Assembly: GCA_026770705.1 (NCBI GenBank)
Contig: JANJGN010000004.1
Coordinates: 192,014,001 to 192,078,000 of the forward strand
DNA: 64,000 nt
Source of the DNA: Isurus oxyrinchus
Taxonomy: Eukaryota
Direction: 5' to 3'
Under the pieces are notes generated by a model. It was not told where the DNA came from and did not search any database. It saw nothing but the letters and a program-made list of their open reading frames with translations. Of the stretch, positions 1,233 through 60,379 are shown one piece after another. Every line of letters starts with the position of its first letter. Position 1 is the stretch's first letter. The translations under genes were made by a program, and so were the position numbers.

Positions 1233-1574
1233 ATGTTGGTAGAAATGACTCAGTGGTGAGCGGGACAGAGGGAAATTCGGTTACATTGCCCTGTATGTTC
1301 ACACCCAATAACTCTTTCACCCTGACCACTGTTACATGGATAAGGAAGGATCCCGACCAAAACGTAGTCACATTTCAAGCCCAATTAAATGGATCATGGA
1401 TAGTTGTAAATGCTGGAAATCGGTACAAGCTTTTCGGGAACCCACAGAAGGGAGACGTGTCAATCATGATAAACCAACTGAACATGACGGACAATTGCAC
1501 TTACCTCTGTGTGGTGGAGTACACAGGACCATCTGATTATCAATATCTGATCCAGAATGAGGCACGAGTGCATG
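1233..1574 (+). CDS. Ig V-set domain exon (phase 1-1), copy A
   Basis: Acceptor ttctttcctcAG at 1231-32, donor GTaaga at 1575; G-x-S-V-T-L-P-C, C-strand W (VTWIR), SI-x-I-x-x-L-x-x-x-D-x-x-x-Y-x-C. Confidence 0.93.
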
Positions 1575-13500: not shown

Positions 13501-16500
13501 CTGAATAGGATTGGTTTTACCTGATATTCTTCCACTGGTGGGGAGACAATGTAGCACATTTTGCAATAAATAATCGAAACGTTTATGAATTGTTTTTATC
13601 TCTTTAGGGTGTTCAAGGCTAATAGGATGCACCAGATCTTTGAAAAGGTAGGATGATTGGTTATTGATACATGCGAGGTAGCAGAAATATTCTGGTTCAG
13701 GGTGGAATTGAACATCTCTTGCTCACAAACAGAGTGCAGCTCGTTGGTGATTAACTGCTAACATGGTAATCCTTTTCAAACACTGGCTGTGGGGAAAGTG
13801 ATCTAAATAGGCTGAGAGATTAATCATTATTGAGTAAAATCTGCCAGTTGCCAGAGACTTATAAACCCCTGACTCCAGATTCACCTGCAATCTTCCTTCC
13901 ACCAAATTAACCTGCAGTTCATCCCAGTATAAAAATGAAGATCTTGCTCATGTTTACCCCTGTGGACACTTTGAGTTGCAACGAATGCTTTCTGGAGGGA
14001 AAGACTTTACTAGATTGAAATATTATCGCTTGCAGTGAATACTTGAGAATAATGTGCAAGTATTTGATTTTATAGTACTTTTACATCCTGTTATTTTCTC
14101 CCTCCCCCTTCAAAGAGCAGAATTTCCAATGGGTGAGGAGATGGTCTCCCAGTCATTCCCCGTTTCCCAAGCCTTCTGCAGCTCTGCCACCAAAGTTATG
14201 AAAGATGGCCTCAAGAAACCCTTGCAAGAATTTCACTCATACCTCCAATACCCTCCCTCCCCTATCCTGAATCTAGTGACTGAAAGATAACCAGAACTGC
14301 CTGGAATCATTTGTTACTGTGATTTTTGCTGGTTTCTGCAGCCTTCCTGGTGTTGCAGCTGCTTGACTATGTCCTGGGTTCCGTGTGCCAGTCACACTAG
14401 GTGCCAAGCGTAGACTGTGAGCGATGGGCGAGCTGTTCAACTGTGCCAAGCCTGATGGCGTCCACAATCGTGATCATTTATAGCAGGGTTCAATTGGTTG
14501 ACTGTGTTCATCACCCTCAGAAAACTGTTCTCTGTACAACACGAGCAAGTGGTTGATGTCACCAGGGATTACACTGTTAGCTTCCTCTGAATATTTTTGC
14601 TCCTTGTGTATTTTTCAGGAAGGATCCAGGTTCATCCATGACTGCCAGGACTGATCAGGCCCACCAGAAGTCTGCACCGGGTACTGACTGAACTTCAATG
14701 GCTGGATCAAAGTCTATTCAAACAGTGCAACGAGAGAGTTTAAGGAATATCGACAAATAGGAAATACCGGACAGATATTTAGGAGCAGATTGTCGCCTTC
14801 GCTGTCTGGGCGATAATCTGATGAGACAAACCGTTTGCACCAGCCTAGGAAGATTGGGTGTCGGTCACCCAAAATGACTCCCAGTAACTGGTGGTGGGGA
14901 GGGGGGGAGCAGTGTTAATTCAAGGCTCGTCACACCATCTCCTGCTCACTTCACATGACATTCTCCTACTCGAACATATACTTTCTCTGAAAACTGGGGA
15001 AGCTTCTTCCCTTCCGACACGACATGGACTGCAGAGATTCAAGAAGGCAGCTCACCACCACCTTCTCAAGGGCATCTAGGGATAGGCAATTAAATACTGG
15101 CCCAGCCAGCGAAGCCTACATCTGATGCACGAGTTAATAAAAAATCCCATCCAGCCTAATCCCGCTCTCCCTCTCACTCCACACACTGTTTACTATCCCA
15201 CACAGTCCAATACTACTGTCCTGCTCACTTCCCATACCCTACAATAGATTTTTTTTTATCTGTTTATGACATGTGGGCATCGCTGGCTAAATCAGCACTT
15301 ATTGCCCATTCCTAGACCTTTGTTCAAAGGGTATTTTTTTTAAAGAGTCAACCATGTTGCTGTGGGTTCGGAGTCACATGTAGGCCAGACCAAGTGAGGA
15401 CAGCAGACTTCCTTCCCTAAAGGAACTTAGTGAACCAGATGGGATTTTTTTGACAATTGACCATGGTTTCATGGTCACCATCTTACCTTTAATTCCAGAT
15501 TGTTTTTATTGGATTCAAATTTCACCATCTACTGCGGTGGAACTTGAACCTGGGTACCCAGGGCGTTACCCTGGGTCTTTGGAATACTAGTCCAGTGATA
15601 ATACCACTATGCCATCACCTCCCTCCAATATGCCACCCAGTCTAATCCCACTCACCCCCTCACTCCACATACCCTACAATATCTCATCCCGTCTAATCCC
15701 ACTCTGCTCCTCACCCCACACACCCTACAATATCCCACCCAGACTAACCCGACTCTCCTGCTGTCTCCACATACCCTACAATACCCCACCCAGTCTAATC
15801 TGACTCTCCTGCTCACACCATATACCCTACAATATCCATCCAATCTAATCTCACTCTTCCCCCCAACCCACATACCCTATGATATTCCACCCAGTCTAAT
15901 CCGACTCTCCCCCTCACTCCTTGTGATATAGGAAACGCAACAGCCAATTTGTGTCCAGCAAGGTCCCATAAACAGCATGCATTCAAACCAGTTAACCTGT
16001 CTCTTTAGTGATGTTGATTGAGGGATGACTGTGGACAAGAACACCAGGGGGAACTCCTCTCTTCTTTGAAATAATCACAGAATCACAGTGCAGAAGAGGC
16101 CCATTGGCCCAGCGAGTCTGTACCTACACATGAGAAACTCCTGACTTACCTACCTAACACCATTTACCAGCACTTGTCCCATAGCCTTGAATGTTATTGT
16201 ATGCCAAGTGCTCATCCAGGTACTTGTTAAAGGATGTGAGGCAACCCGTCTCCACCACCCTCCCAGGCAGCGCATTCCAGACCGTCACCACCTTCTGGAT
16301 AAAAGTTTTTCCTCACATCCCCCCTAAACCTCCTGCCCCTCACCTTGAGCTTATGCCCCCTTGTGACTGATCTTTCAACTAAGAGGAACAGCTGCTCCCT
16401 ATCCACACCCCTCATAGTCATGTAATTTTTCACATTCACCTGAGAGGGCAGGCAGGAACTGGGTTTAATGTCTCACCTGAAAGATAGCACCCCTGACAGT

Positions 16501-19500
16501 GCAGCACCCCATCAGGGCTACATTGAAGTGTCAGCTAGATTTAGTGTTGGAAGTCTCTGGAGTGGGGGGATTGAACCCACAACCTTCTCACTCAGAGGGG
16601 TCTGTGCTGCCCACTGAGCCACTGCTGATATCTAATGACAGCTATGTCAGATGTATGGCACTGTTTCATACCTGTTTGTGTTACAGAGCAAGGCGATTCC
16701 AACACCTACGCCGAGATTGAAAGGGGCAGAACAGGTACACTGCATCTTAATGGTTTACTGTTGTTATTTGGTATTCAGACTCTATCCTCCAACCAACAGA
16801 AGTTTTTGTTTTGTTTTTGTAGGTGGCAAGAGATTCACAATTAGTGCTTCAGAAGACCGTGAGTGAATGTCTCCTTTAATATTGAGAAAAAATGTAGTTT
16901 CAAATCTCTCCCACTCCCCCATATCCTTAAAAGCTGACTTGTTTGTGAGTCTGGCAACCTAGGTAAAGGTTGGTGGATGCTGCAATGGGAGATCGTTCCG
17001 CTCCCAAGATTCATGCCTGTCCCACCATCAGAAATTCATCTCAAATGAGAGCTCCCAGTTCAGCCTTGAGTGACCATGAACTCTCCCCTTAGGAGCTGCT
17101 TCATAAAGTGGATCCCAGCCAGCACCACACCCTCAGCATGGGCTTGTGAAATGAAGGCCATGACTGGCCAGCTTGATTGAATTTTTTCAGGAGGTAGCCA
17201 GGAGGGTGGATGGGGTCAGCACAGTTTGAGGTAGCCCACGTGGATCTTAGCAAGGCTTTTGACAAGGTTCCACGTGGCAAACTGGTCAGAAAATTAAAAG
17301 CTCATAGGATCTAAGGGAGGGTGGCAAATTGGATGCAAAACTGTCTTAGTGGCAGGAAGCAAAGTGTTATGGTCGATGGGTAGTTTTGGGCAACTGCAGC
17401 AAGTGTTGGTTGCTGGAGGAACTCCGGCTCAGAATTGATGAGCTGGAGTCCGAGCTCCGGACACTGCGGCACATCTGGGAGGGGACGAGTTACCTGGACG
17501 CTTTGTTTCAGGAGGCGGTTACACCTGGTAGATTAAGTACCTCAAGTTCGGTCAGTGGTCAGGGTCAGCAGGGTGTGACTGCAAGTGAGGCAGGTAGAGG
17601 GATCCTGTATTCAGGAACAGAGGAGCCTCAGCTCTTGACCGTGTCCAACAGGTACGAGGTACTTGCTCCCTGTGTGGATGAGGAAGAGGGCTGTAGGGAG
17701 GATGAGCCAGCTGACCACGGAACCATGGCACAAGAAGCCATTCACAAGGGGGGAACAAAAAGACAAGTGGTAGTTGTAGGGGATTCTATAATTAGGGGAA
17801 TAGATAGCATCCTTTGTAAGCAGGATCGAGAGTCCCGCATGGTATGTTGCCTGCCTGGTGCCAGGGTGAGGGACATCTCTGACCGGCTTGAAAGGATATT
17901 GGAGAGGGAGGGGGAGGATCCAGTTGTTGTGGTCCACATCGGGACAAATAACATAGGTAAGACTAGGAAAGAAGATCTGTTTGGGGATTATCAGGAACTA
18001 GGAACTAACTTAATGAACAGGTCCTCAAGGGTTATAATCTCCGGATTACTACCCGAGCCACGTGCAAATTGGCATAGGGACGCGAGAATAAGGGAAGTAG
18101 ACACATGGCTAAGGGAGTGGTGCGGGAAAGAGGGGTTCCATTTCGTGGGGCACTGGCATCAGTATTGGAACAGGAGGGATCTGTACCGTTGGGATGGTCT
18201 CCACCTGAACCGATCTGGGACCAATGTTCTAGCGAAAAGGGTAAATAGGGTGGTCAACAGGACTTTAAACTAGAAAGTGGGGGGGGGGAAGGGAAGGGTA
18301 AAACTCCAAAAGTATGACCAATGGGAAACAAAGCAGCAGGTTAGCATGTGGGAGGTGGATTCAACTTCAAGGAAAGTTATGAAAAAAAGGAAAAGAAAGG
18401 AGAGCCCAGGAGAGGCTATTAAAGTCTCCAGAACACAAAATAGGACAGAGTGTTTAGAAAGGGCTAGGAATCTAACTTCCAGCACATCAGATAAAGGGAT
18501 GACAATGAGAAAGGGGACAGGAAATACAGGACTGAAGGTGTTATATCTGAATGCATGCAGTATACGAAATAAGCTAAATGAGCTTGTGGCACAGATTGAA
18601 ATTGGCAGGTATGATGTGGTGGGCATCACGGAGACATGGCTGCAAGGGGATCAGGACTGGGAGCTAAATATCCAAGGATATACATCCTATCGAAAAGATA
18701 GGCAGCTTGGCAGAGGGGGTGGGGTTGCTTTGTTAGTAAGAAATGAAATTAAATCGATAGCAAGAAATTATGTAGAGTCAGATGATGCAGAATCTGTGTG
18801 GGTAGAGTTGAGGAACTGCAAAGGTAGAAAAACCATAATGGGAGTTATGTACAGGCCTCTGAACAGTAGTCAGGATGTGGGGCACTAGATACAGCAGGAG
18901 ATAGAAAAGGCGTGTAAGAAAGGCAAGGTTACAGTGATCATGGGGGGATTTCAATATGCAGGTAGACTGGGAAAATCAGGTTGGTAATGGATCCCAAGAA
19001 AAGGAATTTGTGGAATGTCTACGAGATGGCTTTTTGGAGCAGCTTGTGGTGGAGCCCACTAGGGAACAGGCAATTCTAGATTTAGTGATGTGTAATGAGG
19101 CAAATTTGATAAGGGAGTTTAAGGTGAAGGAACCCTTAGGAGGAAGTGACCGTAATATGATAGAATTTACCCTGCAATTTGAGAGGAAAAAGCTGGAATC
19201 AGATGTAACGGTATTACAGTTGAATAAAGGCAACTACAGAGGCATGAGGGAGGAGCTGGCCAGAATTGACTGGGAGATGAGCCTAGCAGGTAAGACAGTG
19301 GAACAGCAATGGCAGGAGTTTCTGGGAGTAATTTGGGAGACACAGCAAAAATTCATCCCTAGGAAGAAGAAGCATACTAAAGGGAGGACGAGGCAACCAT
19401 GGCTGACAAGGGAAGTCAGGGACAGCATAAAAGCTAAAGAGAAAGCATACAATGCGGCGAAGAGCAGTGGGAAACCAGGGGATTGGGAAACCTACAAAGA

Positions 19501-22500
19501 CCAACAGAGGACAACTAAAAAAGAAATAAGGAGGGAGAAGATTAAATATGAGGGTAAATTATCCAGTAATATAAAAGAAGATTGCAAGAGTTTTTTTAGA
19601 TATATAAAGGGTAAGAGAGGGGCAAAAATGGACATTGGGCTGCTGGAAAATGACACTGGAGAAGTAGTAGTGGGGAACAAAGAAATGGCGGAGGAACTGA
19701 ATAGGTACTTTGTGTCAGTCTTCACGGTGGAAGACACAAGTAACATCCCCAAAGTTCAAGAGAGTCGGGGGCAGAGGTGAGTATGGTGGCCATTACCAAG
19801 GAGAAGGTGCTAGGAAAACTGAAAGGTCTGAAGGTGCATAAATCACCTGGGCCAGATGGATTACACCCCAGAGTTCTGAAGGAGATAGCTGAAGAGATAG
19901 TGGAGGCGTTAGTGGTGATCTTTCAGGAATCACTGGAGTCAGAGAGGGTCCCAGAGGACTGGAAAATCGCTAATGTAACCCCCCTGTTTAAGAAGGGTGT
20001 GAGGCAAAAGACAGGAAATTACAGGCTGATTAGCCTGACCTCGGTCGTTGGTAAGATTTTAGAGTCCATTATTAAGGATGAGATTTCAGAATACTTGGAA
20101 GTGCATGGTAAAATTGGGCAAAGTCAGCATGGTTTCATCAAGGGGAGGTCATGCCTGACAAATCTGTTAGAATTCTTCGAGGAGGTAACGAGTAGGTTAG
20201 ACAAAGGAGAGCCAATGGATGTTATCTACTTGGACTTCCAGAAGGCCTTTGATAAGGTGCCGCACAGGAGGCTGCTCAGTAAGATAAGAGCCCATGGTGT
20301 TAGAGGCAAGGTACTAGCATGGATAGAAGATTGGCTGTCTGGCAGGAGGCAGAGAGTGGGGATAAGGGGGCCCTTCTCAGGATGACCGCCGGTCACTAGT
20401 AGAGTTCCATAGGGGTCAGTATTGGGACCACAACTTTTCACTTTATGCATTAATGATCTAGATGAAGGAACTGAGGGCATCCTGGCTAAGTTTGCAGATG
20501 ATACAAAGATTGGTGGAGGGACAGGTAGTATTGAGGAGGTGGGGAGGCTGCAGAAGGATTTGGACAGGTTAGGAGAATGGGCAAAGAAGTGGCAGATGGA
20601 ATACAACGTGGGGAAGTGTGAGGTCTTACACTTTGGTAGGAAGAATAGAGGCATTGACTATTTTCTAAATGGGGAGAGAATTCAGAAATCTGGAGTGCAA
20701 AGGGACTTGGGAGTCCTAGTCCAGGATTCTCTTAAGGTTAACTTGCAGGTTGAGTCAGTAGTTAGGAAGACAAATGCAATGTTGGCATTTATTTCGAGAG
20801 GACTAGAATATAAAAGCAGGGATGTGCGGCTGAGACTTTATAAGGCTCTGGTCAGACCACATTTAGAATATTGTGAGCAATTTTGGGCCCCGTATCTCAG
20901 GAAGGATGTTCTAGCTCTGGAGAGGATCCAGAGGAGTTTCACGAGAATGATTCCAGGAATGAAAGGCTTAACATATGAGGAACGTATGAGGACTCTAGGT
21001 CAATACTTGATGGCGTTTAGAAGGATGTGGGGATATCTGATTGAAACTTACAGAATACTGAAAGGCCCGGATAGAGTGGACGTGGGGAAGATGTTTCCAT
21101 TAGTAGGAGAGACTAGGACCCGAGGGCACAGCCTCAGAGTAAAGGGAAGACCTTTTAGAACAGAGTTGAGGAGAAACTTCTTTAGCCAGAGAGTGGTGAA
21201 TCTATGGAATTCATTGCCACAGAAGGCTGTGGAGGCCAGGTCATTGAGTGTATTTAAGACCGAGATAGATAGGTTCTTGATTGGTAAGGGGATCAAAGGT
21301 TACGGGGAGAAGTTGGGAGAATGGGGTTGAGAAACTTATCAGCCATGATTGAATGGCGGAGCAGACTCGATGGGAGATATCAATGGACTGGCCAGGTGGG
21401 CAGAAAAGTGGTAAATGTACCTCAGTCTGAAGAAGTATGAAGTAATGTATTTGGGGAAACTGAACATGGCAAAGGAATACACACCAAATGGCAAGATCCT
21501 GAGAAATGTAGGGGTGAAAAAGCACCTTAGAGTGTTGCTCTCGGTAGAAGGTAGCACGGCATGTAGATAAGGTAGTCAGGCATTCTTATAGGATACTTTC
21601 CTATATTGGCCGATGCCTAGAGTATAAGAACAGGGAGGTTAAGTAAGAATTGTGTAAAACACCAGTTGGACCACAGCTGGAATACTGCATCCAGTTCTGG
21701 TCACCACATTACAGGAAGGATCTGATCACACCTGAGAGGCTAGGGGGAGAATTTTAAGGATGTTGCCGGGAATTAAGAGTTTTACCTATGAGGAAAGATT
21801 GCATGGGAAAGGTTGGTTTATTTGCAACAGAGGAAACTGAAGGGAGATACAATTGAGGTGGATAAGATAATAAGGGGCCTAGATAGAGTGGATAGGGAGG
21901 CCCTATTTCCAACAGCAGAGAGGTCAATAACCAGGGACATGGATTTAAAGTAATTGGTGGAATGTTTGGAGGAGGAGTTGAGGAGTAAATTTATTCACTC
22001 ACAGGGTGGTGAGTGTCTGGAACTGACTGCTTGAAAGAGTGTTAGGGGCAGAAACCCTCATCACATTTAAAAAAACACTTGGACATGCATTTGAAGAACC
22101 CATACCTCCAGGGTTACGGACCAAAAGCTGGAAGGTGGGATTAGAGTGCATAGCACTTTATTGGCCAGCTTATACATGATGGGCCAAATAGCCTCCCCTG
22201 TGCTGTAAATCTTTCTATGTTTCTATGTAAAGCTCCCTCTACATTATCTCATCAAACAGGGCAGGTATAGCCGGTGTTGCATATTGTATCAAGCCCCCTA
22301 TACACTGTCCCATTCAGCTGCAGCACTGTCTGCTCATTAATAAGCATGGTTTCTCTGGTGGGTTAATATTTATGGGACTTAAGCTGTCTCCTCTGCTGTG
22401 GAGTGGTAGATGCCATTGAAGGATGGTAATGTCATGTGACAAAATGAAAGCTTTTGACTGTAAATTCAGTCAATTTCATAGTGATGGGGGCATGATTCCA

Positions 22501-25500
22501 GATGTTGGGTGTGTAAATTGTGTGTAAGTTGGGATGATACCCTCTCACAGCAAGTGTTTGCCCATTAGATCTGTCTGGGGACATTCGATTAAGACCATGC
22601 CTGATTTGCACTTCAACTCCATTTTCCTTCCTTTGCTCTCTTATCCTGTTAATTAAAGGGGGGAGAGATAAACCTTGTAACGACAGGCCCATGAGTCAAA
22701 TGGTGGCAGAGGGAGACAATAATCTGGGACAAAATTAATTGGCACTTGGGAAAGTCTGGGTTAATAAATAAAAGCCAGTACAGATGTGTTAAACACAAAT
22801 TGTTTCTGAGGAACCTGATTGAGGTATTTGAAGTTAGAGAGTTGATGAGGGTCGTTGCAATAAACTTGGTGTACTGGACAGGCTTCCTCTTAGAAACAGT
22901 AAACTTTATTTACAGAGCTGCTGATGAAATGTGAACCAAGCCCACCACTAGAAAGCTCCGCCCCTAAGATTACCTGCGCTTAGGGCTGATTCATCTGTAC
23001 AGTCACATGACCCTCAAAACAGTATAAAAGGTTTTACTTACAATCAGTACATCCCTACCCCTTTAATTTTGTTTTACATCTTTTATTTAAAAGAATATCT
23101 TAAATCCATAACATGTACAAATACATCCAGTTCATGGAATTATAGATTGAGGTGGTTTTCTGATTCGGGTAGAGCGATGTAACTCTACGGCTTGAGATTC
23201 TTCCACTGGATCGACTTGACCAGGAACTGCAGCATCAGGGACATCCTTAGACAATGGCAGTTCAGAATTATTTACTTCCACAGAGACATCAGGTACGACT
23301 ATTCTTTGTCAATCTGGTGCCTCAGGGATTGAAGGTTCAACTTCATGTTCAGGTGGAGGAACTGATTGCTGGAGCGTCTCTCTACGTCTTAGATAATCCA
23401 CATGTTTCTGAACAATCCTGTTTTCCGCTTCCATTTGGTATGACAAAGGTCCTGTTTCAGAGACAACTGTACCAAGAACGCATCTCGGTCCAGTTCCAAA
23501 ATTTCGCAGAATAACTGTCACTCGCACAGTAAGTTTTCAATCTTTACTGTGAAAATCATGATTCACTCCTGACTACTTTGGTTCCCTCCAAGTCAGGGAA
23601 CAGCAGACTCAATCTCGTACGAAGGCGGTGTTTCATACTGATGTGGTTGACCCTTAAATGCCCCACGAAATAGCCTAGCCAGCCACTCAGTTGTATCAAA
23701 CAGCTACAAAGTCTCAAAAAAGGAATGAAGTCGGACAGACTGCCCGGCATCCACCTAGGCACCGGAAAGGACAATGGCAAACTCAGCGCTGTCGACCCTG
23801 CAAAGTCTTCCTTACTAACTCCCGGGGGCAAGTGCCAAAATTGGGAGAACTGTCTCACAGACTAGTCAAGCAACAGCCTGACATAGTCATCCTCACAGAA
23901 TCATACCTTACAGATAATGTCCCAGGCTCCACCATCACCATCCCTGGGTATGTCCTGTCCCACCAGCAGGATAGACTCAGCAGAGGTGGAGGCACAGTGG
24001 TATACAGTCGGGAGGGAGTTGCCCTGGAGTCCTCAACCTGGACTCTGGACTTCATGAAGTCTCATGGCATCAGGTCAAACATGGGCAAGGAAAACTCCTG
24101 CTGATTACCACATACCGCCCTCCCTCACTGATGAATCAGTGCTCCTCCATGTTGAACACCACTTGGAGGAAGCACTGAGGGTGGGAAGGGCACAGAATGT
24201 ACTCTGGGTGGGGGACTTCAATTTCCATCACCAAGAGTGGCTCAGTAGCACTACTACTGACCAAGCTGGCTGAGTGCTAAAGGACATAGCTGCTAGACTG
24301 GGTCTGTGGCAGGTGGTGAGGGAACCAACAAGAGGGAAAAACATAGTTGACCTCTTCATCACCAACCTGCCTGCTGCGAATGCATCTGTCCATGAAACAT
24401 TTGCTACAATCTTTGGCCAGAAGTGCCAAGTGGATGATCCATCTCGGCCTCCTCCGGAGGTCCCCAGCATCACAGATGCCAGTCTTCAGCCAATTCAATT
24501 CACTCCACATGATATCAAGAAATGGCTGAAGGCACTGGATACTGCAAAGGCTGTGGGCCCTGACAGTACAACAGCAATAGTACTAAATACTTGTGCTCCA
24601 GAACTTGCCAAGCCCCTAGCCAAGCTGTTCCAGTGCAGCTACAACACTGGTATCTACCTGGCTATTTGGAAAATTTCCTAGGTACGTCCTGTACACAAAA
24701 GGCAGGACAAATCCAACCCAGCCAATTACTGCCCTATCAGTCTACCCTCGATCATCAGTAAAGTAATGGAAGGGGTCATCAATAGTGCTATCAAGCGGCA
24801 CTTGCTTAACAAGAACCTGCTCACTGATGCCCAGTTAGGGTCCTACCAGGGCCACTCAGCTCCTGACCTCATTACAGCTTTGGTTCAAACATGGACAAAA
24901 GAGCTGAACTCCCAAGGTGAGGTGAGAGTGACTGCTCTTGACATCAAGGCCACATTTGACTGAGTGTGGCATCAAGGAGCCCTAGCAAACAGAAGTCAGT
25001 GGGAATCAGGGGAAAACTGTCCACTGATTGATATCATATCTAGCACAAAGGAAGATGATCGTTGGAGGTCAGTCATCTCAGCTCCAGGACATCACTTAAG
25101 GAGTTCCTCAGGGTAGTGTCCTTGGCCTAACCATCTTCAGCTGCTTCATCAGTGACCTTCCTTCCATCATAAGGTCAGAAGTGGAGATGTTCGCTGATGA
25201 TTGCACAATGTTCAGCACCATTCACGACTCCTCAGATACTGAATGCAGCAAGATCTGGACAATATCCAGGCTTGGGCTGACAAGTGGCAAGTAACATACG
25301 TGGCACACAAGTGCCAGGCAATGACCATCTCCAACAAGAGGGAATCTAACCATTTCCCCTTGACGTTCAATGGCATTACCATCACTGAATCCTCTACTAT
25401 CAACATTCTGGGGGTTACCATTAATCAGAAATTGGTGGGGTAGTAAATAGTGAGAAGGATAGACTTAGATTACAGGAGGACATGGACGGGCTGGTCAGAT

Positions 25501-28500
25501 GGGCTGATTAGTGGCAAATGGAACTTAATCCAGATGAGTGTGAGGTGATGCACTTGGGCAGGACAAACAAGGCACGGGAATACACGATGAATGTCTGGCC
25601 TGGGAAGTATTGAGCATCAGATGGATCTTGGTGTGCATGTCCACCTGTCCTTTAAGGTAATAGACAGGTAGATAAGGCGGTTAAGAAGACATATGGGATA
25701 CTTGCCTTTATTAGCTGAGGCATTGAATGTAAGAGCAGGGAGGTTATGCAGGAACTGAATAAAACGCTAGTTAGACCACAGCTAGAGTATTGCTTGCAGT
25801 TCTGGAATCTGCATTTTAGGAAGGATGTGATTGCACTGGAGAGAGTGCAGAGGAGATTTACCAGGATGTTGCCTGGGCTGGAGAGTTTCTTATGAAGAGA
25901 GATTGGATAGATTGGGGTTATTTTCACTGGCGCAGAGGAGATTGAGGGGGGACATAATTGAGGTGTATAAAATTATGAGGGGCATAGATAGGGTAGAGAG
26001 GGAGGAACTTTTCCCCTTAGTGGAGGGATCAATAACCAAGGGGCATAGATTTAAGGAAAGGGGTAGGAGGTTTAGAGGGGATTTGAGGAAGAATTTTTTC
26101 ACCCAGAGGGTGTTGGGAATCTGGAACTCACTGCCTGAAAGGGTGGTAGAGGCAGAAACCCTCATAATATTTAAGAAGTATTTGAATGTGCGCTTGCGAT
26201 GCCATGGCATACAAGGCTATGGGCCTAGTACTGGAAAATGGAATTAGAATTATTAGGTACTTGTTTGACTGGTGCAGACTCAATGGGCCAAAGGGCCTTT
26301 TTCTGTGCTTTAGACCTCTATGACTCCATAACTATGAGAAACTGAGCTGGACTAGCCATATAAATATTGTGGCTACAAGAGCAGGTCAGGAGGCTAGGAA
26401 TCCTGTGACGAGTAACTCACCTCCTGACTCCCCAAAGCCTGTCCACCATCAAGTCAGGAGTGTGATGAAATACTCCCCACTGGCCTGGATGAGTGCAGCT
26501 CCCACAACACTCAAGAAGTTTGACACCATCCAGGATAAAGCAGCCCGCCTGATTGGCACCCCATCCACAAACATTCACTCCCTCCACCACCGATGTACAG
26601 TAGCAGCAGTGTGTACCATCTACAAGATGCACTGCCGGAAGTCACAAGGTTCCTTCGACAGCACCTTCTAAACCCATGACCACTGCCATCTGAATGGACA
26701 AGGACAGCATATTGATGGGAATACCACCACCCGGAAGTTCCCATCCAAGCCACACACCATCCTGACTTGGAAATATATCACCGTTCCTTCACTTTCGTAG
26801 GGTCAAAATCTTGGAATTCCATTCCTAACAGCACTGTGGGTGTACCTACACCTCATGGACTGCAGCGGTTCAAGAAGGCAGCTCACCACCACCTTCTCAA
26901 GGGCAATGAGGGATGGGCAATAAATGCTGGCCCAGCCAGTGATACCTGTACCCCATGAATGAATAAATAAAATGGATGCAACTCTTGGTTATCCACTTGA
27001 TGACCCAAATAAGTGACTTCGGTCGCTTGGAAAGCACACTTCTCTTTTTTCAATAGTCCACCAACCTCCAAAAATCTCCTTAAAATCTCTTCTAGGTTAG
27101 CCAAGTGTTCAGCTTCCATTGATCCTGTGATCAGGACGTTGTTCTGGTACAGCACAGCTCGAGGAAGTCCTAACAGTAGGCTTTCCATGGTTTTTTGGAA
27201 AATCGCACAGGCAGAATACACACCAAAGGGTAGGTGTGTATATTGGTACAGGTCCTTGTGCGAGTTGATGGTTACATACCCTCTTGCTGTGTTCTCCAGC
27301 TCGAGCTGTTGCTATGCATGGCTCATGTCCAGTCTGGTGTAGGATTTTCCTCCAGCCAGCTTAGCGTACAGATCTTCAATCCTTGGGATTGGATATTTGA
27401 CTAATTTAACATCCTCGTTCACAGTTCATTTGTAGTCTCGGCAAATGCGAATAGTTTGATCTAGTTTCATCACGAGGACTATGGCCGTGCCCGTTCTGAA
27501 AATTGGACTGGCTGGATTATTCCTTGCTTCTCTAAGCGGCACAATTCTGCATCTACCTTCCCCTTTAGGGCGTAAGGCACAGGTCTGGCCTTAAATAACA
27601 GGGGTGTTGTCTCCGAATCTATGTATATTTTTGCTTGTAGGCCTTTTATCTTTCCCAACTCGTCTTGGAATATGCTGTCATACTTTTTTAACTGCTCAGG
27701 AATTCCTCCTCTTCTAACTTGACAAATTTCTGACCAGTTGAGTTTAATGTCTTTCAACCAAAGTAACGCAGAAGTATAGGCCCTTCACCTGTTACAACAA
27801 TCATTGCTAGCTGGGCTGTCTGTAGCCTGTAGGTTGCAGGTACAGAGGCGATGAATTTTTCCTCAGTATCTTCATCAGAGTCAAGGGACAGGACATGAGC
27901 GCTGATGACCGTGGCATATTGGTCATGGCTGAGTTGGAGATGAAGTGTCGTGAGGCAAGAGTGTCAAGAGATAGAATCATATAGCACAGAAGGAGCTCAT
28001 TCAGCCCATCGTACCCATGCTGGCTCATTGAAAGAGCTGTCCGATTAGTCCCATTCTCCTGCTATTTACCCAAAAGCCCTGAAAATATCTCTCCTTCAAG
28101 TATTTATCCAGTTCCCCTTTCCAAAGTTACGACTAACACCAAGCTTTCAGAGAGCACATTCAGGATTATAACAACTTACTGCATATGTTTTTTCCTGATG
28201 ATGCCTTTACCAATTGCCTTAAAACTGATCCCTTTTGTGAGCCAATATGAAATCAAGATGGCTGATGATAGTAAACCCTCCAATCAAGGTTTCTCTAAAC
28301 TTTCTCTGCTTGAAGAATGAAGGAGAACAATCCCAAACCCTCCATCTTCTGCATCAAAGTGAAAAACCCAACCCTGGTGCCATTCCACTAAATCTCCTCA
28401 GCACCCTCTCTAAGGCCTTGACATCCCTCCCAGAATGTGGTGTCTGGAATTGAACACAATACTCCAGCTGGGCCTAGCCAGTGTCGTATAAATGGTTAGA

Positions 28501-31500
28501 GTGACTTTTTTCTTTTGTACTCTTTGCCTCCATGGGGAAAGCTCCCCAAACGTTTTGCCGGCATGACTCCATTTTAATGCCTCAGGCATCATGTGCCCCC
28601 AGGTGAAAATATTGGGGGAGGGGGGGAACAAGAGTTGCTAAGGGAGGGGAGAGGCTTCAGTTGTTGAGTTGAGGGGGAATGGTTGAGTCTGCCCCATCCT
28701 TCACCCCAACTCCCCCTCCTTCACTCCCCATCTCCCCCTCCTTCACTCCCCATCTCCCCCTCCTTCACAACTGTCTCCCCCTCTTTTAACCCCCCATCCC
28801 CCCGTCCTTCACCCCATCCCCCCTTCAACCTTCATCTCCCCCTCCTTCACTCCCCATCTACCCCTCCTTCACACCTGTCTCCCCCTCTTTCAACCCCCCC
28901 ATCTCCCCCTCCTTCACCCCATTCCCCCCCTTCAACCCCCATCTCCCCCTCCTTCACACCTGTCTCCCCCTCTTTCAACCCCCCCATCTCCCCCTCCTTC
29001 ACCCCATTTCCCCCCCCCCTTCAACCCCCATCTCCCCCTCCTTCACTCCTGTCTCTCTCCCTTTCACTCCCATCCCAGCTCCTTCACCTCCCAATTCCCC
29101 CCTCTCCTTCAACCTCTCATCTTCCCCTCCTTTACCTCATCACCCGCTCCACTCACGATCTCCCTCGTGGGGAGAGTTAATGAAAAGGCAGGGTTTTTCC
29201 TGCCCATTCACAGGCTTTTTTTGCAGCAGCAATCGGGGCTGAGAGAGCAGTCCATTTAGCCACACCCACCAAAGTGAAGGATAAAAGGGGCCTCACCGAT
29301 GTCAGAAATCAGGCTGAGCTTTATAGCAGCCATTGCTACCTTCAAGCTCGTGGCTCCAAAATCATGTCTTGCGACTCCACTGGGGGTTGAGACCCACAGT
29401 TTTGGAAGCATAGATCCCATTTGCCCCTTTTTCCCTTGAGAACTTCAATCAAATCACCACTAACCTTCTAAATTCCAGGGAATGTGACCGTAACTGTGAT
29501 ATTCCTTCTTGTAATTTAACCCTGTGAGTCCCGATATCATCAACGTACGCTGGTCTCCCTCCCAGGACACTATATCTTTCCTAAAGTGTGGTGACCCAAA
29601 CTGCTGACAAATCCAAAAAGTCGCAGAATTTAAAATTCTCCTCCTTGTGCTCAAATCCCTACAAAACCTTGCCCCCATCTCTGTAACGTCCTGTAGCCTT
29701 ACAAACCTCCGAGAGATCTTCATCCCTCTAATTATGGCCTTTATGCGTATCCCTGATTCTCATCGCAACACCACTGATGGCCGTTGCCTCAGCTACCAAG
29801 GCTGTGAGCTCTGGCATTTCCTCTCTAAAGATCTCCTGCTCCTCTCTACCTGTCTTTCCCCGTTTTAAGTCGCTCCACGTACCATATCTGTTTGACCAAG
29901 TGTCTGATCACCTGTCCTAATACCTCCTTATGTGTCTCGGTGTTGAATTATTGTCTGATTCTTGGGCAGCACTTGTGATGCTTTACAATGATAAATGTGC
30001 GATATAAATACAAGATGCTGTAGTGCTGAAAGGTTCCTTGAATCTAGAGTAAGAAGGCTGAAGACGTAATGCAGTTTCAGAGTGGATATTGTTTGTGTTA
30101 CAGCTGAACCTGATTCCTGTACCTATGCCAGCATAGTGATTGGCAGCAGCAGAAAAGGTAACCAGCTATCAACCGACGTTCAACATATTTTACACCTCTT
30201 TCCATTTAGTGATATTTCTCAATGTTTAAAATTCATCCTCCTGACTAATGGAACATTCTCCTTCAGTTCAAGGTGGCAGAAATCTCACAGTCGCTGATTC
30301 AGAAGAGAGTGAGTCAGTTTTACCTTTCAAAATACTATTCCTAATTTTTTCTCCTTCCCTCAGCCTCTGAAGGGCATTCTCCCATGTGTGAACCCCAGTG
30401 GCAGTTGGGGCTGGGTGATCCATCTCTCTGTTATTGGGTTTTGATGGTATCATCATTTTCCCAGAACATTGACTGCCATGGATCTGTACCTCTGTCTGTC
30501 CTGTGCTGGCCTTACACAGTCCACATGGGTCAACTGCACATAGTCCACTAAATATGTCTTCTCCTATGTTTTCCATCTATCTTTCATTCTAATAATTGTC
30601 TCCGTCTACCATCTCTAATGATGTGACCAAAGTATTGTATCTTTCTTTGATGTTACGCACTAATTTCATCGTTTCTCCAGCCATTTCCAGCATTAACTCA
30701 TTAATCTTTCTATCTGTGTTGGATATGCAGAACATCATCCTTTTTTCCACATCCCTGTCTATATCCCATGCCCGCAGACGTGGACATATAGGAGGTTTCA
30801 TCACATGACCTCAAAACCTTGATTGACACCCCATCCACCACCTTAAACATTCACTCCCTCCACCACCGACATACAGTAGCAGCAGTGTGTACCATCTACA
30901 AGATGCGCTGTAGCAACTCACCAAGGCTCCTTTGACAGCACCTTCCAAATCTGCGACCTCTACCACTTAGAAGGTCAAGGGCAGCAGTTACATGGGAACA
31001 CCACCACCTGGAAGTTCCCCTCCAAGTCACTCACCATCCTGACTTGGAAATATATCGCCGTTCCTTCACTGTCGTTGGGTCAAAATCCTGGAACTCCCTC
31101 CCTAACAGCACTGTGGGTGTACCTACACCACATGGACTGCAGCGGTTCAAGAAGGCAGCTCACCACCACCTTCTCAAGGGCAATTAGGGATGGGAAATTA
31201 ATGCTGGCCCAACCAGCGAAGCCCACATCCCGTGACTGAATAAAACAAAACCCTTCCCCCTTACTCCAGCGCTCCTTCTACATCTACCACTTCTAAGTGG
31301 TAGAGGTCGCAGATTTGGAAGGTGCTGTCAAAGGAGCCTTGGTGAGTTGCTACAGCGCATCTTGTAGATGGTCAGCCTGCCTGTCCATTCTCACATGATG
31401 CAGCTTTTCTGCACCAATCAGAAGGCAATCAGACTTTCTGTTATCCCATTGGATGATACTTGACTGTCAGTCAAATTGCCCATCTCCCCCAGTGCATGCA

Positions 31501-31676
31501 TAACGAATAAACAGAGGGGCTTCAGGAAAATGAGGAACAAGCGCACAATTTTCAGGGTAAACATTCCTCTTTCCTGTGGTTACCCTGCACTGAAATTCTT
31601 GCTATAATTATAATCAGCTCTGATCCCTGTCTGTCTTGTTTCAGATGTAACCTATGCCACTGTGAACATACGTTAG
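1233..31676 (+). CDS. Single Ig V-domain inhibitory receptor (ITIM-bearing IgSF), 5'-partial; join(1233..1574,4886..4990,13608..13647,14619..14680,16687..16734,16823..16858,30104..30157,30267..30308,31645..31676)
   Basis: All nine exons have pyrimidine-tract AG acceptors, the eight internal donors are GT, phases match (1,1,2,1,1,1,1,1), no internal stops. Protein: xVGRNDSVVSGTEGNSVTLPCMFTPNNSFTLTTVTWIRKDPDQNVVTFQAQLNGSWIVVNAGNRYKLFGNPQKGDVSIMINQLNMTDNCTYLCVVEYTGPSDYQYLIQNEARVH VKPSDSTFNIYLLLIPLLILLLILFIIFIIFMKKG GCSRLIGCTRSLK RKDPGSSMTARTDQAHQKSAP EQGDSNTYAEIERGRT GGKRFTISASED PEPDSCTYASIVIGSSRK VQGGRNLTVADSEE NVTYATVNIR*. Confidence 0.8.
2465..3055 (-). mobile_element. Degraded Penelope-like element 3' remnant
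   Basis: AAACAGAAAATGCTGGGAAAACTCAGCAGGTCTGGC terminus and GIY-YIG C-terminal sequence similar to the element at 49009-51931. Confidence 0.65.
3058..3411 (-). mobile_element. CR1 LINE 3' fragment
   Basis: Reverse strand encodes FTQKVVGIWNS-like RT end; CR1-type tail. Confidence 0.7.
4235..4810 (-). mobile_element. Deu-domain SINE (SacSINE1-like), with a possible hAT-type MITE inside (~4394-4578)
   Basis: CTCAGGACATCCCAAAGTGCTT..CACAGCAGCCAATTT..GGTTTAACGTCTCA, homologous to the + copy at 41268. Confidence 0.55.
4886..4990 (+). CDS. Short stalk + transmembrane exon (phase 1-1)
   Basis: Acceptor gctgttttacAG, donor G|GTgggt; IYLLLIPLLILLLILFIIFIIFM followed by KK stop-transfer; no charged TM residue. 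Confidence 0.9.
6490..7848 (+). mobile_element. 5'-truncated CR1 LINE (3' RT region), interrupted by another CR1
   Basis: MQYNMDKCEVIHF, LYKALVRPHLEY, LRGDLIE-like motifs; (TTTCTATG) tail. Confidence 0.88.
6874..7290 (-). mobile_element. Nested antisense CR1 3' fragment
   Basis: ORF 6957-7286 RLRGDLIEVYK..FFTQ.VV..WNSLP; GAACAAAG repeat tail; splits the host CR1 at its EY|Y codons. Confidence 0.88.
8205..13030 (-). mobile_element. Degraded RTE-clade LINE, split by the LINE at 8320-11508
   Basis: LCEAETWT, NEEVLRM, GHIL..LLKEVIEG..RPRGR and LNVKK..EIRAR motifs; 3' end resumes at 8205-8319. Confidence 0.75.
8320..11508 (-). mobile_element. Near full-length family-A LINE (endonuclease + RT, frameshifted) with tRNA-like 5' head
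   Basis: APE motifs (QDRPTRGGG, GDFN), RT motifs (NYRPISLLS, LDIKAAFDRVWH, GVPQG, FTDD); poly-T at 8320; A/B-box-like head at 11420-11508. Confidence 0.9.
13608..13647 (+). CDS. Cytoplasmic exon 1 (GCSRLIGCTRSLK; phase 1-2)
   Basis: tttttatctctttAG acceptor, AAG|GTagga donor, open frame; lies in non-repeat sequence. Confidence 0.7.
14619..14680 (+). CDS. Cytoplasmic exon 2 (RKDPGSSMTARTDQAHQKSAP; phase 2-1)
   Basis: gtatttttcAG acceptor, G|GTactg donor; phase complements the previous exon. Confidence 0.7.
15145..15920. repeat. Degenerate ~49-bp minisatellite interrupted by a SINE
   Basis: Recurrent CCCTACAATATCCCACCCAGTCTAATCCCACTCTCC..CACATA units. Confidence 0.75.
15249..15623 (-). mobile_element. 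tRNA-headed SINE made of family-A LINE 5' and 3' ends
   Basis: Homologous to 11250-11508 joined to the LINE 3' tail; poly-T at left end. Confidence 0.8.
15925..16630 (-). mobile_element. Deu-domain SINE with nested CR1 fragment (~16070-16420)
   Basis: GGAAACGCAACAGCCAATTTGTG, GGTTTAATGTCTCA, TTGAACCCACAACCTTCT..CCACTGAGCCA head. Confidence 0.65.
16687..16734 (+). CDS. Cytoplasmic exon 3 with Tyr motif 1 (EQGDSNTYAEIERGRT)
   Basis: tgtttgtgttacAG acceptor, CAG|GTacac donor, 48 nt, phase 1-1. Confidence 0.85.
16823..16858 (+). CDS. Cytoplasmic exon 4, spacer (GGKRFTISASED)
   Basis: ttttgtttttgtAG acceptor, C|GTgagt donor, 36 nt, phase 1-1. Confidence 0.82.
17165..22228 (+). mobile_element. 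Older CR1 LINE RT region hosting a younger CR1
   Basis: DLSKAFDKVP at ~17245; resumes at ~21375 to a (TTTCTATG) tail. Confidence 0.75.
17386..21372 (+). mobile_element. Near full-length young CR1 LINE: ORF1 (zinc finger/coiled coil + SGNH esterase), ORF2 (APE + RT) with few stops/frameshifts
   Basis: ORF1 17386-18273 CxxC, VVGDSI, GA, HIGTNN, DGLHLN; ORF2 YLNACSI, GITETWL, GDFN, LDFQKAFDKVPH, KFADD. Confidence 0.95.
22870..23051 (-). repeat. Gypsy 3' LTR with adjacent polypurine tract
   Basis: Inverted termini TGTACTG...CAGTACA; PPT AAAGGGGTAGGGA (minus strand) at 23052-23064. Confidence 0.75.
23640..26972 (+). mobile_element. Family-A LINE, internally deleted
   Basis: QQPDIVILTESYL, WVGDFN, LDIKA, FADD; family tail at 26900-26972. 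Confidence 0.9.
25431..26336 (+). mobile_element. CR1 3' fragment nested in the family-A LINE
   Basis: RRLRGDIIEVYKIM, FFTQRV..WNSLP; host CAGAAA(C)TG site repeated on both sides; absent from the paralogous LINE near 62390. Confidence 0.88.
28690..29150. repeat. C/T-rich degenerate minisatellite
   Basis: Recurrent CCCCATCTCCCCCTCCTTCAC units. Confidence 0.85.
30104..30157 (+). CDS. Cytoplasmic exon 5 with Tyr motif 2 (PEPDSCTYASIVIGSSRK)
   Basis: tgtttgtgttacAG acceptor identical to that at 16687; AAG|GTaacc donor; 54 nt, phase 1-1. Confidence 0.85.
30267..30308 (+). CDS. Cytoplasmic exon 6, spacer (VQGGRNLTVADSEE)
   Basis: ttctccttcAG acceptor (alternative in-frame AG at 30271-72), A|GTgagt donor; homologous to 16823-16858. 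Confidence 0.8.
30822..31250 (+). mobile_element. Family-A LINE 3' fragment
   Basis: High similarity to the other family 3' ends; A-rich tail. Confidence 0.9.
31290..31372 (-). repeat. Perfect 83-bp inverted copy of 30891-30973
   Basis: Base-by-base reverse complement, including copy-private variants. Confidence 0.92.
31645..31676 (+). CDS. Terminal coding exon with canonical ITIM (NVTYATVNIR*)
   Basis: ctgtcttgtttcAG acceptor, phase 1, V-x-Y-x-x-V, TAG at 31674-76. Confidence 0.88.
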
Positions 31677-31847
31677 GCATGATCATTATCAGTGAGTACT
31701 GAACCCTTGGAACTGAGGCTGTACTATTTCTCCACTCAAATTCAAGGGAGCATCGCAGGACTGACCAGCTCTTAAACTCGATATACCCATTCTGGTTTAA
31801 TCTCGTATAATGTATCGCTACATCCATATCTGTCTTATTTGTTAAGA

Positions 31848-32275
31848 GAAAGAAAGACTTGCGTTTACATAGTGCCTTTCACAACCTCTGGATATCCCAA
31901 AGTGCTTAACAGCCAATGAAGCACCTTTGAGGTGTGATCACTGTTCTAATTATGGAAAGGTGGCAGCATGTTGTGCATAGCCAGCTCTCGAAGACAGCAG
32001 TGTGATAATGTCCAGATAATGTGTTTAAGTGACGTTCACTCATGGATGAATATTGGCCAGGACGCCAAGACAAATTCCCTTCTCTTCTTCAACTTTGGGA
32101 TCATTTACATACACTTTGAGGACAACGGGACCTCTGTTTAACGCTCGTCTGATCCCTCCAACAGGGCAGCACTGCCTCAGCCCTGCACCAGACTGCCAGC
32201 CTAAGTCTGCGAGGTGCAGGAACCCACAACCCCCCTGACTCAGAGGTGTGATTACAGTCAGCTAAGTCACAGCTT
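31848..32275 (-). mobile_element. Deu-domain SINE
   Basis: GAAAGACTTGCGTTTACATAGTGCCTTTCACAACC..ATCCCAAAGTGCTT. Confidence 0.65.
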
Positions 32276-32888
32276 GACACGATGGCGGCTCATCACCAGG
32301 CTGTCAAGGGCAATTAAGGCCGGGGAATAAATGCTGGCCTTGTCAGTGACTCTCAAACGTAACTCTGTTTCTCTCTCCACAGATGCTGCATGATCTGCTG
32401 AGTATTTTCAGCTCTTCTTGTTTTTATTAAAAGCTTTAATAAACTTTCAGCATGGGTAAATAATTAGCAAATGAAATTCAACACAGATAAATATAAAGTA
32501 GTACGTTTTGGGAGGTCACTTATTACTTGGGGGAGGGGTGCAAGTCTAGGTTGAACTCGGAGTACAAATACACCAATTACTCAAGCTGAGCTGCAAGTTA
32601 GCAAGGCCATAAAAAGCAGACCAAACATTAGGCTTTATTTCTAAAGAGATTGAATTGAAAAATGAGGGATTTATGCTAAACCTGTATCAAACCCCGATTG
32701 GACTGCACTTATGTGCAGTTTTGGCCGCCATATTATTATCAGGGTAGGATTGACAGCTGGGGCTCTTTTCTCTCGAAAAAAGAAGGCTGAGAGGTGACCT
32801 TAAAATCTTTAAAATTCTGAAAGGTTTTGATAAAGTGGTAACAGAGAGGATGTTCCCTCTTGTGGAGAAGAGCAGAACTAGAGACCGA

Positions 32889-59782: not shown

Positions 59783-60063
59783 CTGCTGGTAGAAATGACT
59801 CAGTGGTGAGCGGGACAGAGGGAGATTCGGTTACATTGCCCTGTATGTTCACACCCAATAACTCTTTCACCCTGACCACTGTTACATGGATAAGGAAGGA
59901 GCCCTACCAACGTGTAGTCACATTCAGAGCCCAATCAAAGGGATCACGGAATACTGTAAATGGTAGAAATGGGAATGACCTTGTCGGGAACCCAGAGGAG
60001 GGAATTGCCTCAACCAGGATAAACCAGCTGAGGGTGAAGGCTGATCACACTTCCCTGTGTCTG
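59783..60063 (+). pseudogene. Paralogous Ig V exon (copy B), truncated just after the second Cys
   Basis: Colinear with 1233-1513 (offset 58550); D-x-x-x-Y-x-C degraded to ADHTSLC; runs into antisense LINE at 60064; no donor or TM exon found in the window. Confidence 0.88.
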
Positions 60064-60379
60064 CTGACTTGTGCCTTGTAGATGGTGGACAGGCTTTGGG
60101 AAGTCAGGAGATGAATTACTCACTGCAGAATCCCCGGCCTCTGACCTGCTCTTGTAGCCACAGCATTTATAGGGCTAGTCGAGTTCAGTTCCTGGTCAAT
60201 GGTAACCCCCAAGATGTTGATAGTGGGAGAATCAGTGATGGTAATGCCATCGAATATCAGGAGGAGATGGGCAGAATTTCTCTTGTTGGAGATGGTCATT
60301 GCCTGGCGCTTATGTGGCGCAAATGTTACACTTGGAAGTCCAAGCCTGAATGTTATCCAGATCTTGCTGCATTTGGACA
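60064..60379 (-). mobile_element. Family-A LINE fragment, antisense
   Basis: KRQAMTISNKR..PTINILGVTIDQ. Confidence 0.85.

What the first reader, a model, noticed from the sequence alone, without database searches (positions are those of the whole stretch)
16687..31676. Cytoplasmic tail built from a duplicated symmetric exon pair, with 28-aa Tyr-to-Tyr spacing kept twice
Seen: pair 16687-16734 + 16823-16858 and pair 30104-30157 + 30267-30308 share a 14-nt acceptor (tgtttgtgttacag), GATTCC...ACCTAYGCC, GG(K/R)..T...SE(D/E), short internal introns (88 and 109 nt) and gtgagt donors. The last exon also has ACCTATGCCA. All four exons are phase 1-1 and multiples of 3 (48, 36, 54, 42). Y1-Y2 and Y2-Y3 are each 28 residues despite different exon lengths (26 for Y2-Y3 if the AG at 30271-72 is used). 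Inference: spacing is selected for tandem-SH2 phosphatase binding, and skipping modules could tune the tail to 1-3 motifs without frameshift.
Basis: partly seen in the sequence, partly recalled or inferred. Interest (0 to 1): 0.7.

Follow-up and report, generated by a model that had tools for sequence, protein, structure and literature searches.

The report
Shark Siglec-15 relative with modular tail
These exons encode the three-tyrosine tail of a shark immune receptor related to Siglec-15, likely the inhibitory member of a family of paired inhibitory and activating receptors in sharks and rays; the exon duplication is real, but the 28-residue spacing varies across the family and is not a fixed ruler.

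Summary
In detail: two duplicated phase 1-1 exon pairs, shared splice sites, tyrosines 28 and 28 residues apart. They belong to a + strand gene with a V-set exon (1233-1574), an uncharged transmembrane exon (4886-4990) and seven tail exons. It matches a basking-shark RefSeq protein at 208 of 253 residues, with no extra exon between the pairs. Relatives form an elasmobranch multigene family whose first Ig domain matches Siglec-15 best by sequence and predicted fold, with the sialic-acid arginine in 50 of 61 records. The family looks paired: 27 of 79 records have an uncharged membrane span plus terminal ITIM, 16 of 79 have a Siglec-15-like membrane lysine. The exact-spacing idea is weakly supported: the last interval spans 23-34, and the last two intervals are equal in only 4 of 27 tails. 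Tails gain and lose tyrosine exons repeatedly, and annotated isoforms skip single exons, some breaking the spacing (16). Only the terminal motif is a strict ITIM. Salamander proteins carry a homologous tail (28/29, 20/29), suggesting an ancient inhibitory Siglec-15 partner. Ten paper searches found no description of the family.

The parts
1233..1574 (+). Second V-set Ig exon (V2), phase 1-1; lacks the Siglec arginine. The leader and V1 exons seen in relatives are not in the window and presumably lie upstream
   Evidence: Pfam V-set E 1.6e-17; 78% to basking-shark and 82% to great-white V2; boundaries
4886..4990 (+). Transmembrane exon, uncharged hydrophobic span, phase 1-1
   Evidence: it found ortholog P0001
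13608..13647 (+). Tail exon E3, phase 1-2, no tyrosine
   Evidence: tblastn of orthologs
14619..14680 (+). Tail exon E4, phase 2-1, no tyrosine
   Evidence: 21 of 21 residues identical to P0001 and P0005
16687..16734 (+). Exon A1, first tyrosine (NTYAEI, not a strict ITIM), phase 1-1
   Evidence: 17 of 17 identical to great-white P0005
16823..16858 (+). Exon A2, spacer of module A, phase 1-1; read-through of its donor stops after a few codons, as in the great-white model P0005
16859..30103 (+). 13.2-kb intron largely filled by retroelement pieces; no further family exon found
   Evidence: self-BLAST, Pfam RVT_1/GDSL hits, exon scan, tblastn with 19 relatives, gap-free match to P0001
30104..30157 (+). 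Exon B1, second tyrosine (CTYASI; Cys at -2 conserved in the family), phase 1-1
30267..30308 (+). Exon B2, spacer of module B, phase 1-1; second AG at 30271-72 lines up with the acceptor of A2
   Evidence: the basking-shark model has the residues of the 30267 acceptor
31645..31676 (+). Last coding exon C, terminal ITIM (VTYATV) and stop codon
31677..32443 (+). Putative 3' untranslated region up to candidate poly(A) signals at 32326, 32426, 32438 (inferred)
59783..60066 (+). Second, truncated copy of the V2 exon with about 250 nt of upstream intron, cut by a repeat; likely a pseudogene fragment of the same family
   Evidence: 80% DNA identity to 984-1516; Pfam V-set E 5.2e-7; no V1, membrane or tail partner by tblastn

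Best explanation
The exons encode the three-tyrosine tail of a shark membrane receptor whose relatives carry a Siglec-15-type first Ig domain; it likely acts as the inhibitory member of a paired family, predicted to bind sialylated glycans and, once phosphorylated, to recruit SHP-1/SHP-2. Shown: exon structure, open frame, uncharged membrane span, terminal ITIM, family membership, and paralogs with a membrane lysine. Inferred: the V1 arginine binds sialic acid; Src-family kinases phosphorylate the tail; the last two tyrosines, kept about 23-34 residues apart, engage the two SH2 domains; lysine-bearing paralogs signal through DAP12/DAP10. The tail is an accordion of phase 1-1 exons: tyrosine exons or pairs are duplicated, lost or skipped again and again. 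The last interval is loosely constrained, the upstream ones are free. The equal 28/28 follows from exon arithmetic in some sharks: module A is 28 codons, module B is 32 codons minus a 4-codon offset in the last exon.
For: Gene model open from V2 to stop, 208 of 253 residues identical to Cetorhinus XP_078416744.1, no internal gap. Family profile: best solved match Siglec-15, E 1.5e-18. A V1-only member: Siglec-15 first by sequence (E 1.2e-10), by Foldseek (E 3.4e-9) and by VIA-align (Z 16.4, rmsd 1.9, 115 aligned; next sialoadhesin Z 14.8). Arginine in 50 of 61 complete V1 patterns; 27 of 79 records with uncharged span plus terminal ITIM, 16 of 79 with membrane lysine; the two classes share a chromosome-size contig in, for example, Heterodontus and Hemiscyllium and group by genus in 4 of 5 genera sampled in both forms (SH-aLRT 96-99, quick tree). 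Terminal motif VxYA in 29 of 32, fitting both SHP2 SH2 consensus sequences (PMC10231330) with the +1 alanine that favours SHP1 (PMC8631942). Recurrent module change: A1 twice in Heterodontus and Narcine, pair B twice in Scyliorhinus canicula (interval 32), pair A absent in Heterodontus P0008.
Against: The V1 exon is outside the window, so this gene's own arginine is inferred from orthologs; 11 of 61 V1 domains lack it, and zebrafish Siglec-15 bound tested glycans poorly (PMC7226832). Y1 and Y2 miss the strict ITIM consensus at -2. The trees do not resolve the deep position of V1: with outgroups, TIM-like rows fell inside the Siglec-15 group, and two rows were mis-cut. Isoform evidence comes from automatic RefSeq models of other species. 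The records are cluster representatives and isoforms, not a gene count.
Confidence: 0.62

Rival explanations
1. One reading: 28 residues is a selected ruler for tandem-SH2 binding, kept for both intervals, and pair-wise skipping tunes the tail between one and three motifs.
For: 28/28 in the window, Cetorhinus, Mustelus and two Heterodontus tails; penultimate interval 28 in 14 of 27, last interval 27-30 in 21 of 30; newt 28/29. Linker length matters for SHP2 activation (PMC10231330; PMC7078208). One Heterodontus paralog lacks exactly pair A and keeps 28.
Against: Equal intervals in only 4 of 27; ranges 14-36 and 23-34. A fresh duplication of pair B gives 32 (P0029). Same-gene Heterodontus models (297 of 298 identical) differ by A2 alone, giving 28 or 16. 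Shared 28s among sharks are largely inherited, not independent.
Confidence: 0.12
2. Only the terminal tyrosine is a phosphatase dock; the two upstream tyrosines serve other SH2 adaptors or act as internalisation signals, so their spacing is irrelevant to SHP binding.
For: Y1 has N and Y2 has C at -2, outside the ITIM and SHP2 consensus (PMC7226832). Y1 exons are freely lost or doubled.
Against: The second motif is CxYA in 29 of 32 tails and sits 23-34 residues before the terminal motif in all 30 tails, also in salamanders, as expected for a two-site dock.
Confidence: 0.14
3. The receptor is a tandem-V protein-binding receptor of the pIgR/CD300/MDIR or JAML type, and the Siglec likeness is not functional.
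For: Second domain is a V-set without the arginine, not a C2-set; pIgR and JAML are the next sequence matches and top the two-domain fold search; RefSeq names in the family include pIgR-like and JAML-like; skates have a paired MDIR family (PMC3031540).
Against: pIgR scores arise from several weak domain matches (at most about 24 bits each, against 69.6 for Siglec-15 in one domain); V1 alone ranks Siglec-15 first in three searches; the activating forms have a Siglec-15-like membrane lysine. MDIR sequences were not compared directly.
Confidence: 0.12

Closest known systems
Siglec-15 (PDB 7zoz)
   Same: V1 of the family: best sequence and fold match, shared extra cysteine pair and F-strand arginine; activating paralogs share the membrane lysine.
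   Different: Siglec-15 is V + C2 with a membrane lysine and a short tail without ITIM (PMC11652361). This gene has V + V, an uncharged span and a tail of about 107 residues with three tyrosines, in a multigene family.
CD33-related paired Siglecs (Siglec-5/14 and 11/16 pairs; recalled, from no call)
   Same: Likely the same logic: like ectodomains on ITIM tails or on adaptor-binding spans, grouping by species.
   Different: CD33, Siglec-7, -8, -5 and -10 rank below Siglec-15 for V1; fish are said to lack CD33-related Siglecs (PMC7226832), so this would be a separate expansion.
Salamander proteins named Siglec-12/13 by RefSeq (Pleurodeles P0080/P0081, Ambystoma P0117)
   Same: Two Siglec-15-type V domains and a homologous three-tyrosine tail (z 12.6 and 11.4 against shuffles, as high as skate and ray members).
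   Different: P0080 has a C2-like domain and both V domains are of the V1 type; the V domains did not group with the family V1.
Second cartilaginous-fish lineage with V-V-C2 ectodomain (Heptranchias P0106, Callorhinchus P0111, Mobula P0112)
   Same: Related V1 and V2 domains, also with tyrosine-tail and membrane-lysine forms, on the same large contigs in Heptranchias and Mobula.
   Different: Keeps a C2-like domain, lacks the V1 extra cysteine pair, and its tail is unrelated or barely related (z 2.6).
Skate MDIR, CD300 and pIgR family
   Same: Multigene activating/inhibitory V-domain receptors in cartilaginous fish (PMC3031540).
   Different: V1 here is Siglec-15-like; pIgR matches only weakly per domain. 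MDIR sequences were not compared.

Membership tests
Siglec family | N-terminal V-set domain of Siglec type | tested here: met
   Tested on relatives, since V1 is outside the window: Siglec-15 ranks first by sequence and fold
Siglec family | Essential F-strand arginine in V1 | tested here: met
   Present in the two closest orthologs and 50 of 61 complete V1 patterns; not visible for the window's own gene
Siglec family | C2-set domain after the V-set | tested here: not met
   Second domain is V-set (Pfam E 1.6e-17) and is followed by the membrane exon, as in the ortholog
Siglec family | Sialic-acid-dependent glycan binding | not testable with these tools
   needs a binding assay
Siglec-15 ortholog | Lysine in the membrane span for DAP12/DAP10 | tested here: not met
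   Window span is uncharged; 16 of 79 family records have it
Siglec-15 ortholog | Short tail without ITIM | tested here: not met
   About 107-residue tail ending in a strict ITIM
Siglec-15 ortholog | One clade with tetrapod and teleost Siglec-15 V domains | tested here: inconclusive
   Quick trees only; family V1 is its own clade (99) and deeper forks are weak or disturbed
Siglec-15 ortholog | Conserved gene neighbourhood | not testable with these tools
   No genome held for the window; no unrelated gene found in the window
ITIM inhibitory receptor | [I/V/L/S]xYxx[L/V] motif in the tail | tested here: met
   Terminal motif only; consensus as in PMC7226832; Y1 and Y2 fail at -2
ITIM inhibitory receptor | SHP-1/SHP-2/SHIP recruitment and inhibition | not testable with these tools
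   needs cell assays
Paired receptor family | Inhibitory and adaptor-coupled forms with like ectodomains, clustered | tested here: met
   Heterodontus pair 254 of 317 and Mobula birostris pair 252 of 296 aligned residues identical overall
TIM family | CCR and WFND motifs and mucin stalk (features recalled, from no call) | tested here: not met
   Absent from family V1 rows, present as CCR/WFND in TIM-like rows printed; no stalk between V2 and the membrane exon
MDIR / CD300 / pIgR | CD300-type V domain | tested here: inconclusive
   pIgR matches weakly; MDIR sequences were not retrieved; absence from fold lists excludes nothing

The most novel reading that the evidence does not exclude
The jawed-vertebrate ancestor had an inhibitory partner of Siglec-15 with this very tail (a CxYA motif 28-29 residues before a terminal VxYA motif). 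Sharks and rays expanded it into a paired sialic-acid receptor family that does the job CD33-related Siglecs do in mammals, salamanders kept it, and amniotes lost it, leaving human Siglec-15 as an orphaned activating half. The conserved cysteine two residues before the second tyrosine would be a regulatory site.
Probability: 0.4. Interest if true: 0.75.

Novelty: new variant of a known kind. Interest (0 to 1): 0.5.

Why it matters
Siglec-15 is described as a conserved activating receptor without ITIM, and fish are said to have only four Siglecs and no inhibitory CD33-related ones (PMC7226832, PMC11652361). A paired, expanded Siglec-15-related family across sharks, skates and rays would be an independent solution to sialic-acid self-sensing in the oldest jawed lineage, and the shared tail in salamanders would date an inhibitory Siglec-15 partner to the origin of jawed vertebrates. 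The tail is also a natural series (two to four tyrosines, intervals 14-36) for testing what spacing tandem-SH2 phosphatases need. The spacing coincidence that prompted the finding is the less interesting part.

Tried and rejected
RNA check: four contig runs, RNA by guess, were laid on 29200-32500. Only X2 had depth in the bins holding B1, B2 and C (1.21, 1.27, 1.73); neighbouring intron bins 29977-30087, 30310-30531 and 31531-31641 had none, but the joint and loose-end tables were swamped by a repeat and showed no exon junction, so this is not counted as evidence of splicing or skipping. The small word shares are probably from that repeat. No genome was held, so V1, synteny and gene counts could not be read. 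A simple splice-score scan missed several true exons (A1, B1 and B2 scored below its cut-off), so its blank in the long intron is weak; the ortholog match carries that point. The two-domain fold search reflected only tandem-V architecture and did not list Siglec-15 in the rows shown. The careful tree did not finish; the quick tree was used, and CD22/TIM outgroups dropped out; a second quick tree with outgroups had two mis-cut rows (P0059, P0136) and was unresolved. Rejected: TIM identity; Siglec-15 orthology; a recent duplication (introns and flanks unalignable); phase 1-1 as a special feature. No complex prediction was run, since no shark SHP sequence was fetched. Earlier scan notes held nothing relevant. 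No amniote protein with this tail was seen among the best 150 of 1417 profile hits, which does not show absence.

Full report
Observation. The four exons, their lengths (48, 36, 54, 42), phases (all 1-1), the 88- and 109-nt introns, the shared 14-nt acceptor, the gtgagt donors and the three ACCTAYGC sites are as described, and the tyrosines are 28 and 28 residues apart. Pair A against pair B gives 137 of 201 identical bases, z 10.8, with 0 of 1000 shuffles reaching the score; the internal introns and 200-nt flanks are no more alike than shuffles (z 0.4, 0.1, 1.4), so the duplication is real and old. The AG at 30271-72 is the position that lines up with the acceptor of A2.

The gene. An uncharged membrane exon at 4886-4990 found one database protein, basking-shark LOC144692089 (XP_078416744.1). 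Mapping it back gave a V-set exon (1233-1574) and two more tail exons (13608-13647, 14619-14680). The nine exons give an open frame of 253 residues plus stop, 208 of 253 identical to the ortholog with no internal gap, so that model has no extra exon between the pairs. Three tail exons match a great-white-shark model letter for letter, which points to a lamniform shark. The leader and first Ig exon of the relatives are not in the window.

The family. Tail and profile searches returned 79 shark, skate and ray records; these are cluster representatives and isoforms, not genes. The profile's best solved match is Siglec-15 (E 1.5e-18, 69.6 bits in one domain), ahead of pIgR, whose score is summed from weak matches. 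A V1-only member ranks Siglec-15 first by sequence, Foldseek (E 3.4e-9) and VIA-align (Z 16.4, rmsd 1.9, 115 residues; next Z 14.8) on a model of mean pLDDT 77.7. The F-strand arginine is present in 50 of 61 complete V1 patterns. V2 lacks it and is a V-set, where Siglec-15 has a C2-set. Of the 79 records, 27 have an uncharged span and terminal ITIM, 16 a membrane lysine, 5 a terminal ITIM without membrane span, 15 an uncharged span with another tail, and 16 neither span nor ITIM. Lysine and ITIM forms group by genus in 4 of 5 genera sampled in both forms (SH-aLRT 96-99; Narcine unresolved; quick tree, midpoint root), the pattern described for paired receptors (PMC5112662, passages). The deep position of V1 is not resolved.

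Testing the spacing idea. Among 82 proteins examined, 30 distinct tails ended in the terminal motif (27 elasmobranch, 3 salamander; some are near-duplicates of one gene). The last interval is 28 in 10 of 30, 27-30 in 21 of 30, and spans 23-34; skates and rays have 32 or 34, the sawshark 23. The penultimate interval is 28 in 14 of 27 and spans 14-36. The two are equal in 4 of 27. In the window the first 28 is simply the length of module A, since the tyrosine is codon 8 of both A1 and B1; the second is 32 codons of module B less 4, since the tyrosine is codon 4 of the last exon. When pair B was duplicated again in Scyliorhinus canicula the interval became 32. Linker length does matter for SHP2 (PMC10231330, Introduction part 1; PMC7078208, passages), so a loose constraint on the last pair is plausible; an exact double 28 is not required.

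Testing the skipping idea. Tail make-up changes often: A1 twice in Heterodontus and Narcine, pair A absent from one Heterodontus paralog, A1 absent from whale-shark models X3-X6 but present in X2, A2 absent from Stegostoma and Chiloscyllium models. Two Heterodontus models identical at 297 of 298 shared residues differ by A2 alone in the tail. So in-frame variation exists, but by single exons as well as pairs, and it can break the spacing. Several models end by reading through the A1 or A2 donor. These are automatic models in other species; skipping in this gene is not shown. One RNA-like run had contig cover in the bins holding B1, B2 and C, but no junction was displayed.

Mechanism. Only the terminal motif fits the ITIM consensus (PMC7226832, passages) and both SHP2 SH2 consensus sequences; its +1 alanine is the residue reported to favour SHP1 (PMC8631942, passages). 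The second motif is CxYA in 29 of 32 records. The likely working: V1 binds sialylated ligands, the tail is phosphorylated, the last two tyrosines hold SHP-1/SHP-2, and upstream tyrosine exons add optional sites; lysine paralogs would signal through DAP12/DAP10 as Siglec-15 does (PMC11652361, passages). Kinase, phosphatase, adaptor and ligand steps are all inferred.

Beyond sharks. Newt and axolotl proteins with two Siglec-15-type V domains carry tails with the same two motifs, intervals 28/29 and 20/29. Against the basking-shark tail they score z 12.6 and 11.4, like skate, ray and sawshark members (13.1, 11.2, 10.9), while six control tails score -0.6 to 5.5. Shuffles do not fully control for convergence on tyrosine motifs, and the salamander V domains did not group with the family V1, so common descent of the whole gene is likely but open.

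Novelty. RefSeq gives members scattered automatic names (Siglec-15, -12, -10, pIgR-like, JAML-like, uncharacterized). Ten searches, seven of them aimed at Siglecs in sharks, fish or amphibians, listed no paper describing this family; the whale-shark genome paper mentions Siglecs once in general terms (PMC8455134, one passage), and MDIRs are described as CD300/pIgR-like (PMC3031540, passages). Other papers were seen only as search listings, and no supplements were read. The library lacks most subscription journals, including where Siglec evolution reviews appear, so absence from print is not established.

Verdict. Observation confirmed, interpretation partly supported. The tail is an ordinary kind of ITIM accordion, and 28/28 is an inherited state of some sharks. 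The gene is best filed as a Siglec-15-related, tandem-V, likely inhibitory paired receptor, not a Siglec-15 ortholog: a new variant of a known kind, interest 0.5.

Noticed in passing
window 59783-60066 (+), with 59527-59782: Second copy of the V2 exon and its upstream intron (80% DNA identity), with changed core residues and cut by a repeat; no partner exons found in the window
   Followed up: partly
window 30104-30157 and family records: Cysteine two residues before the second tyrosine is kept in 29 of 32 tails and in salamander relatives; unexplained, possibly a redox or acylation site
   Followed up: partly
window 31692-31697: A gtgagt donor-like site 15 nt after the stop codon; possible intron in the 3' untranslated region
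   Followed up: no
window 4886-4990; P0005, P0009, P0029, P0030, P0062, P0063: Several RefSeq models lack the symmetric membrane exon, predicting soluble forms; in the window an inverted repeat pair (3-762 and 8323-9046, 78%) flanks the V2 and membrane exons
   Followed up: no
P0106, P0111, P0112, P0124: A second cartilaginous-fish lineage (V-V-C2) related to Siglec-15, also with tyrosine-tail and membrane-lysine forms, including the chimaera Callorhinchus
   Followed up: partly
P0086, P0110 (Protopterus), P0119 (Metynnis): Lungfish and a characin have proteins with repeated Siglec-15-type V domains (eight matched stretches in P0086)
   Followed up: partly
window 17350-21374 (+) and 36755-40900 (-): Two LINE copies in opposite orientation (66% over 2.8 kb) flank exons B1, B2 and C; the first has a GDSL-type ORF1 and reverse transcriptase pieces
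   Followed up: partly
window 30891-30973 and 31290-31372: Perfect 83-nt inverted repeat inside the repeat element in the last intron
   Followed up: no
window 49527-52163 (-): 878-codon open frame with a reverse transcriptase domain, an unusually intact retroelement
   Followed up: partly
window 33253-35500 and 44638-48900: Frames that look like a DNA transposon and an LTR retroelement by eye; no Pfam hit at E 0.001 for the pieces scanned
   Followed up: partly
window 15621-15920, 28687-29150, 58158-59037: Tandem repeat arrays seen in the self-comparison
   Followed up: no
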